A DNA stretch of 64,000 nt from the human T2T-CHM13v2.0 reference genome, Homo sapiens, in NCBI RefSeq assembly GCF_009914755.1, contig NC_060947.1. One strand, 5' to 3'. Position 1 is the stretch's first letter. The number at the start of each line of letters is the position of its first letter. The position numbers and the translations under genes are program-made. The notes beneath the pieces are model-generated. The model made no database searches. It saw only the letters and a program-made list of their open reading frames with translations, and was not told where the DNA came from. Below are positions 18,210 to 21,325 of the stretch, piece by piece.

Positions 18210-19078
<869 letters not shown>

Positions 19079-19088
19079 GTAAGAATGG

Positions 19089-20170
19089 AATTCAGGTGCA
19101 GGCTTGGGGCTGGAGCCCAGGCTGCGGGGTCCACCTCGGGCCTCAGGGGCACGTCTGGGAGGGCAGGGCCCAGCGCCCAATTTCGGGAGTTAATTCCAGG
19201 CGTTGGTGATTTCCTAGGGATTAACTGGGGCGGAGGGTGCATGCTTTTGGGTGTATCTAGATGAGTGCTTCCTAAATCCTGGGGGCTCCGCACTTTAGTG
19301 GAGGCTCCAGCATTTTAGGAGTTACCGTCTTAAAATCCACATTTAAGAAGGTATTTTTGGAGTTCTCCAGTCTTAAGGGTTAATCCTGTGGAAACTGACT
19401 CCTAAGGGCAAATCCAAGGAGCCTGCGGTTTTGGTATTTAATTCTGAATCCTTATGAGTTACATAAGGAGTGAATCCTGGGTGGGTGACCTTGGGTCTTG
19501 GAGAATGATCCTCGCTGAAAGGTGTCTGGGGTGTGAGAGGGGTGATTCTGGTTTAGAGGATGAATTCTGCAGGCCCTGGGAGGCCTTCTAGAGCATATAA
19601 ATTGAAATAACCCCCGGCTTAGATCTGAGTATGAATTACAGACGGAGTGAGCCTACCAAAAGCAGCCGACCATCTTTCAAAACAAGAAGAAGCTCCTGCT
19701 GGGAGAAACTGGCAAGAAGCTCCTGCAGTACTACAGAACATCAATCTGGGCTTCAAGACACCTGAAGAGGCGATTGAGGGCACCTACATTGACAAGAAAT
19801 GCCCCTTCACTGGTAATGCCTCCATTCGAGGGCGGATCCTCTTTGGCATGGTGACCAAGATGAAGATGCAGAGGACTGTCATCTGCCGAGACTATCTCCA
19901 CTACACCTGCAAGTACAACCACCTTGAGAAGCACCACAAGAACATGTCCGTAAACCTGTCCCCCTGCTTCAGGGACATCCAGATCAGCGACATCATCACA
20001 GTGGGCGAGTGCTGGCCCCTGAGCAAGATGGTACGCTTCAACGTGCTCAAGGTCACCAAGACCACCGGGCACCAAGAAGCAGTTCCAGAAGTTCTGAGGC
20101 TGGATGTCTGCCCGCTCCCCACAATGAAATAAAGTTATTTTCTCAGCCCCTCCCCCACCTAAAAAAAAAC
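19089..20170 (+). pseudogene. RPS11 (40S ribosomal protein uS17) retro-pseudogene with an extra 5' intron-like segment
   Basis: 19642-20097 translates to RPS11-like [13 protein letters not shown]...[23 protein letters not shown]...KMKMQRT...SPCFRD...RFNVLKVTK...KKQFQKF*, uninterrupted; early TGA (19648) and two frameshifts; AATAAA 20128-20133; poly(A); TSD AGTAAGAATGG at 19078-19088 and 20171-20181. The RPS11P number cannot be determined from sequence alone. Confidence 0.95.
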
Positions 20171-21325
20171 AGTAAGAATGGGTTTCCTAGTGTGGCTTCT
20201 CTAGACAGGGTGGCAGCCTTGGGAGGGTGTCAAGGTGGAGAGTGGGAGGCCCTCAGCCTGGCATCATCTGGCCTGCCCTGTGCCTTCTCCCAAGCCAGCA
20301 AGGAAAAGACCTTGCTCCTTGCTTGGGCCCTGAAGAGCTCCACGTGTCACGGTAGTCAGTGCGGGTTTCTTTAGACTGGGGCACAGTGGTGATGGCCACA
20401 CAGGTTCCCCTGTGGGAAATGCTTTGAAGAGCCTTTGTTCCCAAGAGTTGATCAAGGAAACAAGCTGGTAATGAACAGCAGAAATAACAATACTTAATAA
20501 TGGGCAGAATCAAAATGGATTTCAATCCTGGCAGCTAATTTACCAGGAAACTTATTCCTGAGGCAGGCAGCTCTCTCCCCTCATCAGACTGTAGGATAAA
20601 CAAGGAAGTGGCAGGACCAGGAGAGGCAGGAGGTGGGAGGAGAGGAGGTGGAGGGAGAGAGGAAGGGGGAAGAAAGAAGGGAGGGAGGAGCAGCGGGGTC
20701 TGAATGAGGTCTTTGGAAATGTGCAGAGACGCTGGGGAGTGAGAGTGGGCAGGGGTTAGGAAGGGTAGGAGCCCCCAAATCTCAAAGATGCCTCTCAGAG
20801 GCCCTGCAGCTTCCCCGGCCCCCGTGATGGCTGTGAAGCCCAGGGCTCCTCCTCCAGATCTCCAGCTCAGCCCCTCCAACTCTTCAACCCTTGGTACATA
20901 TCCTCCACTGTTACTGCCTGCCCCCAAGAGCTAAGGAAGGGGGCCTCAAGACCACACAACAATGGAAGGAAACCCCTTGTCAGGGAAGGAAGATTCTAAC
21001 TGGAGCCCTCAATGCTCCAGAAAGATTATCTTTCCGGTTCCCATTGTAAAGAGAGCAACTCACAATCACCCCACTACCCATAAGCTCTCACTGCCCTTTT
21101 CCTCCCCCACCCCCACCCCCCAAACAGGCTGATTTGTTTGCCTTTTATCACTCTGTTAAAAAATTAGTTCTTACAGGTCCTTCTCCCAGGATGAGGGCAA
21201 AAGACAGCCTGGGCCTCCTCTGTTATTTTAAGGCAAGATATGTCGGCTTGAAGTCTGCTCTGAGATCTTGTGGGGAGGGCGGCAGGGCTTGTTATATGAG
21301 GGTCAAGTCAATAATAAGACCTGCT

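What the first reader, a model, noticed from the sequence alone, without database searches (positions are those of the whole stretch)
19078..20181. Semi-processed RPS11 retrocopy containing an intron-1-like segment
Seen in sequence: the TSD AGTAAGAATGG (19078-19088 and 20171-20181, at a TT/AAAA L1 endonuclease site) brackets about 1080 bp, yet spliced RPS11 coding homology starts only at 19642. The insert opens with ATTCAG (19090-19095) directly followed by GTGCAG, and a 546-bp segment with a GC-rich 5' end runs to ...TTACAG (19641). From recalled RPS11 structure, exon 1 ends ...GAC ATT CAG (MADIQ) and exon 2 starts ACT GAG CGT (TER), exactly where this segment sits, while the later introns are absent. 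There is no pyrimidine tract before 19641, so the template may have been an isoform using a downstream alternative 5' splice site in intron 1 rather than full intron retention. Inference: this copy records an unproductive RPS11 isoform present in the ancestral germ line, of the kind linked to ribosomal-protein autoregulation by AS-NMD.
Basis: partly seen in the sequence, partly recalled or inferred. Interest (0 to 1): 0.7.

Follow-up and report, generated by a model that had tools for sequence, protein, structure and literature searches.

The report
RPS11 retrocopy preserving an alternative splice
This is a dead DNA copy of a ribosomal-protein message in which the first intron was cut at a second, downstream splice site, so it preserves a rare stop-codon-carrying RNA form that was likely made in the germ line of a primate ancestor; a second, older copy on chromosome 1 preserves a similar form.

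Summary
Observation confirmed. Window 19090-19641 aligns at 86% to the parent RPS11 gene: 6 nt of exon 1 plus the first 544 of 722 nt of intron 1. It ends exactly at an internal donor (CAG|GTAAGG) and joins exon 2; introns 2-4 are removed precisely. The template was therefore a fully spliced alternative-donor isoform, not an intron-retaining one. The annotation RPS11P7 misses the 5' 549 nt. The isoform has a stop at codon 43 in both parent and copy.

New here: an independent, about 2.6-fold more diverged copy on chr1 joins about 245 nt of intron 1 to exon 2, at a site with no GT in today's human gene. Extended forms are 2 of 7 informative copies.

Autoregulation by AS-NMD is untested. The extension has diverged at a near-neutral rate, and its predicted fold has no covariation support. 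The start-proximal stop in a long exon may blunt NMD (recalled rule).

Verdict: a new member of a known kind (retrocopies as isoform fossils), and a modest, testable lead on RPS11 splicing.

The parts
19078..19088 (+). 5' target-site duplication (may extend to 19075-19093) at a TT|AAAA L1 endonuclease-type site
19090..19095 (+). Last 6 nt of RPS11 exon 1; TOP tract and ATG lost by 5' truncation
19096..19641 (+). Exon-1 extension: parent intron 1 positions +1 to +544, ending at the alternative donor; missed by the RPS11P7 annotation
   Evidence: 86% identity, E 2.9e-183; alignments
19207..19209 (+). TGA in the exon-1 frame, same codon (43) as the premature stop of the parent's alternative isoform
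19642..19769 (+). Exon 2 copy; carries a 3-nt and a 1-nt deletion
19770..19845 (+). Exon 3 copy, intron 2 precisely absent
19846..19972 (+). Exon 4 copy, intron 3 (which hosts SNORD35 in the parent) precisely absent; 3-nt deletion
19973..20149 (+). Exon 5 copy with a 1-nt insertion, stop at 20095-20097 and AATAAA at 20128-20133
20150..20170 (+). Degenerate tail: C-rich stretch, then 9 A
20171..20181 (+). 3' target-site duplication

Best explanation
This is an inactive retrocopy of RPS11 whose first exon runs 544 nt into intron 1 and is joined to exon 2 at an internal GT donor, likely written into the X chromosome by LINE-1 machinery in a simian ancestor's germ line. Shown: exact junctions, loss of introns 2-4, polyA signal, A tail, TSD, a stop at codon 43 in copy and parent, frameshifts in the coding part. 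Inferred: the parent's canonical donor competes with a slightly stronger downstream donor, so a minor share of this very abundant pre-mRNA is spliced at +544. That polyadenylated RNA likely persisted long enough to be captured by L1 ORF2p, perhaps because its stop is start-proximal and in a long exon. It was reverse-transcribed at a TT|AAAA nick and lost about 30 nt of its 5' end at a microhomology with the target. Insertion is inferred at roughly 35-45 million years ago. The isoform is most likely a persistent minor by-product rather than a proven regulatory switch. An older chr1 copy shows that exon-1 extension also occurred earlier, at a different junction.
For: 86% colinear match to parent intron +1..+544 ending at CAG|GTAAGG. 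All four joins fall exactly on parent splice sites. The alternative donor ranks 2 of 49 GT sites in intron 1 by a crude U1-pairing score, 8 against 7.5 for the canonical donor. It leaves a normal 178-nt intron. TSD is significant. Five other full-length copies have the canonical exon1-exon2 join, a control for the alignments. The chr1 copy has its own 17-nt TSD (15/17; 8 of 1991 random pairs score as high), a polyA tail and a join of about +245 to exon 2. Non-CpG divergence from parent is 21/403 in the CDS and 50/489 in the extension. Lykke-Andersen 2014 (PMC4233243) Table S3 lists four RPS11 transcripts as NMD substrates by RNA-seq, one also in the relaxed 5'-end set of Table S4.
Against: No transcript annotation or RNA-seq could be examined, so present-day use of the +544 donor is not shown. 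The exon structures of the four NMD-listed RPS11 transcripts were not seen, and that table lists 35,055 transcripts. The empty site was not checked. The age rests on a recalled mutation rate. The donor score is crude, and another GT (+615) scores higher. At the chr1 join the human gene has TT, not GT, so that donor is inferred. Extended forms are 2 of 7 informative copies, more than a rare by-product would predict (P of 1 or more among the other 6 is 0.06 at 1% usage).
Confidence: 0.88

Rival explanations
1. The +544 isoform is a regulated AS-NMD switch: excess RPS11 (uS17) would bind intron 1 and shift splicing to the downstream donor, as RPL10A does. This concerns the isoform's function and is compatible with the retrocopy origin.
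For: Same architecture as human RPL10A, a downstream alternative donor giving a PTC (PMC4937301 passages). The PTC is kept at codon 43. Exon-1 extension is recorded twice at different ages. The parent extension folds better than shuffles (z -5.9 global, -3.2 block, 12 shuffles each; three control regions +0.2 to -1.2), with a predicted 17-bp helix starting 10 nt from the canonical donor. RPS11 is a snoRNA host, a class enriched in NMD isoforms.
Against: The extension shows near-neutral divergence. No covariation: pair retention P=0.11-0.44 in 9 of 12 settings and 0.029 in 3 settings that share the same 45 pairs; compensatory changes never exceed the null. The junction moved between the two copies. 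RPS11 is absent from the searchable supplements of three AS-NMD papers. Gupta and Warner saw no substantial change in non-canonical RP junctions other than RPL3 in NMD-deficient mouse data.
Confidence: 0.2
2. The template was an intermediate of two-step intron removal: the first splice (+544 donor to exon 2) leaves a CAG that would then act as acceptor for the canonical donor, giving normal mRNA.
For: The site is AG|GT and a second splice would restore the canonical mRNA exactly. The chr1 join also ends in AG.
Against: No pyrimidine tract (0.45 vs 0.70-0.90). The RNA was polyadenylated with all later introns removed, which fits a mature product.
Confidence: 0.05
3. The template retained all of intron 1, and the last 178 nt were deleted later in the genome or skipped by the reverse transcriptase.
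For: The CAG before the donor and the TAG acceptor share a 2-nt AG microhomology. Intron-retaining retrocopies exist.
Against: Both ends fall exactly on a strong GT donor and on the annotated acceptor, which a random deletion is very unlikely to hit.
Confidence: 0.03

Closest known systems
RPS11P7 (RefSeq pseudogene, 19639-20150)
   Same: Same locus and coding remnant
   Different: The annotation omits the 5' 549 nt, which belong to the same insertion
Retrocopies as archives of transcript isoforms (Shemesh et al. 2006 PNAS, PMID 16432206; not held, seen only as cited in PMC4772013 and PMC5470649)
   Same: A processed copy preserves an alternative splice junction
   Different: Here two copies of different age record different junctions in one intron; whether RPS11P7 was in that study could not be checked
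Semi-processed ribosomal-protein pseudogenes RPSAP8/RPSAP9 of sheep (PMC2850357, passages)
   Same: RP retrocopy carrying part of a parental intron
   Different: Those carry part of intron 4 with SNORA62; this one ends at a proper alternative donor and has no Rfam match at the gathering threshold
RPL10A / rpl-1 AS-NMD autoregulation via L10ARE (PMC4937301, passages); RPL3 and RPL12 as cited there
   Same: Two competing 5' splice sites, the downstream one giving a PTC
   Different: No conserved element or protein binding shown for RPS11; the stop is start-proximal in exon 1; the extension is near-neutral in the one comparison available

Membership tests
L1-mediated processed pseudogene | Precise intron loss | tested here: met
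   Four joins exact to parent splice sites
L1-mediated processed pseudogene | PolyA signal and A tail | tested here: met
   AATAAA 20128-20133, 9 A before the TSD, tail degenerate
L1-mediated processed pseudogene | TSD at an endonuclease-type site | tested here: met
   TT|AAAA consensus is recalled
L1-mediated processed pseudogene | Disabled reading frame | tested here: met
   No ATG, 1-nt deletion and 1-nt insertion
L1-mediated processed pseudogene | Empty site in outgroup | not testable with these tools
   No relatives held
Semi-processed (intron-retaining) pseudogene | An unspliced intron or intron remnant with its acceptor | tested here: not met
   The last 178 nt, including tract and acceptor, are absent and the join is a GT-AG splice; it meets only the loose sense of holding intron-derived sequence
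Alternative 5' splice-site isoform fossil | Colinear with 5' intron, ending at an internal GT, joined to the normal acceptor | tested here: met
RP-gene AS-NMD autoregulation (RPL10A type) | PTC more than 50 nt upstream of a junction | tested here: met
   430 nt upstream of the alternative junction, three more junctions downstream
RP-gene AS-NMD autoregulation (RPL10A type) | Isoform stabilised by NMD inhibition | tested here: inconclusive
   Four RPS11 transcripts listed as NMD substrates, structures unseen; no rows in three other supplements
RP-gene AS-NMD autoregulation (RPL10A type) | Conserved cis element between the donors | tested here: inconclusive
   Near-neutral overall, no covariation, only three sequences
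RP-gene AS-NMD autoregulation (RPL10A type) | Protein level controls donor choice | not testable with these tools
   Needs an experiment

The most novel reading that the evidence does not exclude
RPS11 has long run an unproductive exon-1-extension pathway whose donor moved from about +245/+254 in an early placental ancestor to +544 in simians. The two retrocopies are dated snapshots of an undescribed RPS11 feedback or snoRNA-uncoupling circuit. Such PTC-bearing RNAs are over-captured by L1 (2 of 7 informative copies), possibly through UPF1, which is part of L1 RNPs (PMC5821459 passages).
Probability: 0.17. Interest if true: 0.65.

Novelty: new member of a known kind. Interest (0 to 1): 0.36.

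Why it matters
It extends the annotated pseudogene by 549 nt and names an exact RPS11 junction (intron 1 +544 to exon 2) that can be counted in existing RNA-seq. The chr1 copy may preserve a splice donor that the human gene has since lost. If the isoform proves regulated, RPS11 would join the short list of ribosomal proteins that control their own splicing. If PTC isoforms are generally enriched among retrocopies, that would say something about what L1 captures.

Tried and rejected
Full intron retention: rejected.

Repeat or other-gene origin: rejected; only the parent and the chr1 copy match, and tandem repeats in the insert are limited to one weak 19-nt doublet at 19280-19318.

Known RNA in the segment: none at the Rfam gathering threshold in this copy or the chr1 copy; only SNORD35 in parent intron 3.

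Reading the chr1 5' end as exon 1: my first reading, dropped once it proved to be the TSD (missed because my window was too short, found).

One intron-bearing copy derived from the other: rejected, because they have different joins, TSDs and ages, and the chr1 copy shares an older parental base with four old copies that this copy lacks.

A conserved RNA structure: folding z-scores are suggestive but the pair-retention test gave no support.

One global alignment of the chr1 copy failed and was discarded (first block).

Literature: six searches found no paper on this isoform or on intron sequence in RPS11P7; I saw most hits only as listings. RPS11P7 appears in one table row (PMC9223589) and one listing (PMC11523315). 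The library lacks most subscription papers. Shemesh 2006, Zhang 2014 and two NMD-rule papers were not held, and Gupta and Warner Table S8, which could list RPS11, was unreadable.

Full report
Observation. The 11-mer TSD occurs exactly twice in the window, at 19078 and 20171 (0.03 expected), after a TT|AAAA site, and brackets 1082 bp. It may extend to 14 or 19 nt with 1 or 3 mismatches; only an empty site can settle that.

Identity of the segment. A search of the own genome places query 13-564 on chr19:52,496,450-52,496,999 at 86%, directly upstream of four exon-sized hits. The parent locus translates to the 158-aa RPS11. Intron 1 is 722 nt. The copy holds the last 6 nt of exon 1 and intron positions +1 to +544, stops at CAG|GTAAGG and continues with the first base of exon 2. 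The joins at window 19641, 19769, 19845 and 19972 all match parent splice sites. The missing 178 nt form a normal GT-AG intron. By a crude U1-pairing score built on a recalled consensus, this donor ranks 2 of 49 GT sites in the intron (8, against 7.5 for the canonical donor and 8.5 for an unused site at +615). The template was thus a fully spliced alternative-donor isoform.

Coding consequence. In the parent the isoform reads 42 codons to a TGA that lies 126 nt from the ATG and 430 nt upstream of the new junction; the first downstream ATG in the RPS11 frame gives 79 aa. The copy has TGA at the same codon (19207), so the template already carried the stop. The 50-nt rule predicts NMD. Recalled rules on start-proximal stops and long exons (here about 581 nt) predict partial escape; the papers were not held.

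Age. Non-CpG differences from the parent are 21/403 in the CDS and 50/489 in the extension (Fisher p=0.006). The twofold ratio is what one expects if both branches drift in the extension and only the copy drifts in the CDS. With a recalled non-CpG rate near 1.2-1.5e-9 per site per year this suggests 35-45 million years, an inference.

A second copy. The intron matches one other place, chr1:150.88 Mb. That copy has about 245 nt of intron 1 (65% to parent, 69% to this copy) joined to the first base of exon 2, an Alu inside exon 2, a polyA tail and its own 17-nt TSD (15/17; 8 of 1991 random pairs). It differs from the parent at 78/449 non-CpG sites against 30/457 for this copy in the same alignment. 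At its join the human gene reads TT, not GT. Either an ancestral GT was lost, or the donor lay 9 nt further on (GTA in this copy, GTT in the parent) and the chr1 copy later lost 9 nt between AAG repeats. Neither could be tested.

Family count. Searches give 10 retrocopies. Seven reach the exon 1-2 join: five canonical (two on chr12, chr1:240 Mb, chr20, chr10) and two extended. Three are 5'-truncated (chr9, chr1:49.6 Mb, chr16). I dropped three 30-35-nt tail matches unexamined, and the searches score best candidates only. Gupta and Warner (PMC4114680, section read) found only 14 of 376 RP introns alternatively spliced above 1%. At 1% usage, 2 or more of 7 has P=0.002, but after discounting the copy that prompted the study, 1 or more of 6 has P=0.06 (0.11 at 2%). 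This is suggestive only.

Regulation. The layout resembles human RPL10A (PMC4937301 passages). RPS11 hosts SNORD35 and is among 173 snoRNA hosts in PMC4233243 Table S6. Four RPS11 transcripts are in its RNA-seq NMD list of 35,055 and one is in the relaxed combined list (Table S3 was cut when stored, so cleavage positions were not seen). Their exon structures were not available. The parent extension folds better than shuffles and has a predicted 17-bp helix beside the canonical donor, but pair retention and compensatory changes in the two copies do not exceed the null in 9 of 12 settings, and the other 3 are one set of 45 pairs at P=0.029. RPS11 was not found in the searchable supplements of PMC8091538, PMC10123112 or PMC6547761. 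A review (PMC8623629, two passages) lists splicing feedback for RPS13 but not RPS11. Autoregulation stays open at about 0.2.

Comparison and novelty. Retrocopies as records of isoforms are established (Shemesh 2006 as cited; not read), RP pseudogenes with intron remnants are described (PMC2850357 passages), and occasional intron retention in retrocopies is noted (PMC2584115 passages). Six searches found no account of this case. PMC5667991 (one table row) confirms only that ENST00000594493 is an RPS11 transcript; I recall it as a 79-aa isoform, unverified, so the junction may already be annotated. This is a new member of a known kind; the pair of differently joined copies is the part worth following.

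Noticed in passing
L010:1797-2936 (G000:C1:150,880,796-150,881,935): Older RPS11 retrocopy with about 245 nt of intron 1 joined to exon 2, its own TSD, an Alu in exon 2 and a short duplication just after the join; the human gene has no GT at the join.
   Followed up: yes
window 19075-19095 and L010:1797-1815: Both intron-bearing copies begin within about 6 nt of the canonical donor, with target-site microhomology to exon 1, whereas the five canonical copies reach the TOP region. Microhomology-guided truncation or templates with a trimmed 5' end; unexplained.
   Followed up: partly
window 20150-20170 and L020 (chr16 copy): Both have a C-rich stretch between the polyA site and the A run; no shared private substitutions were evident by eye, so probably independent.
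   Followed up: partly
L009:966-982 with 1289-1305: Predicted 17-bp helix starting 10 nt after the canonical donor of the parent; no covariation support.
   Followed up: partly
L028 (G000:C10:112.79 Mb): Very old RPS11 retrocopy (71% identity) with the canonical join, found only by the protein search.
   Followed up: yes
window 18553-18838: Alu-like element (recognised by eye, within the masked stretch) about 240 bp upstream of the insertion.
   Followed up: no
window 19639-20150: RPS11P7 is listed as up-regulated by melatonin in granulosa cells (PMC9223589 table row); may be cross-mapping from RPS11.
   Followed up: no
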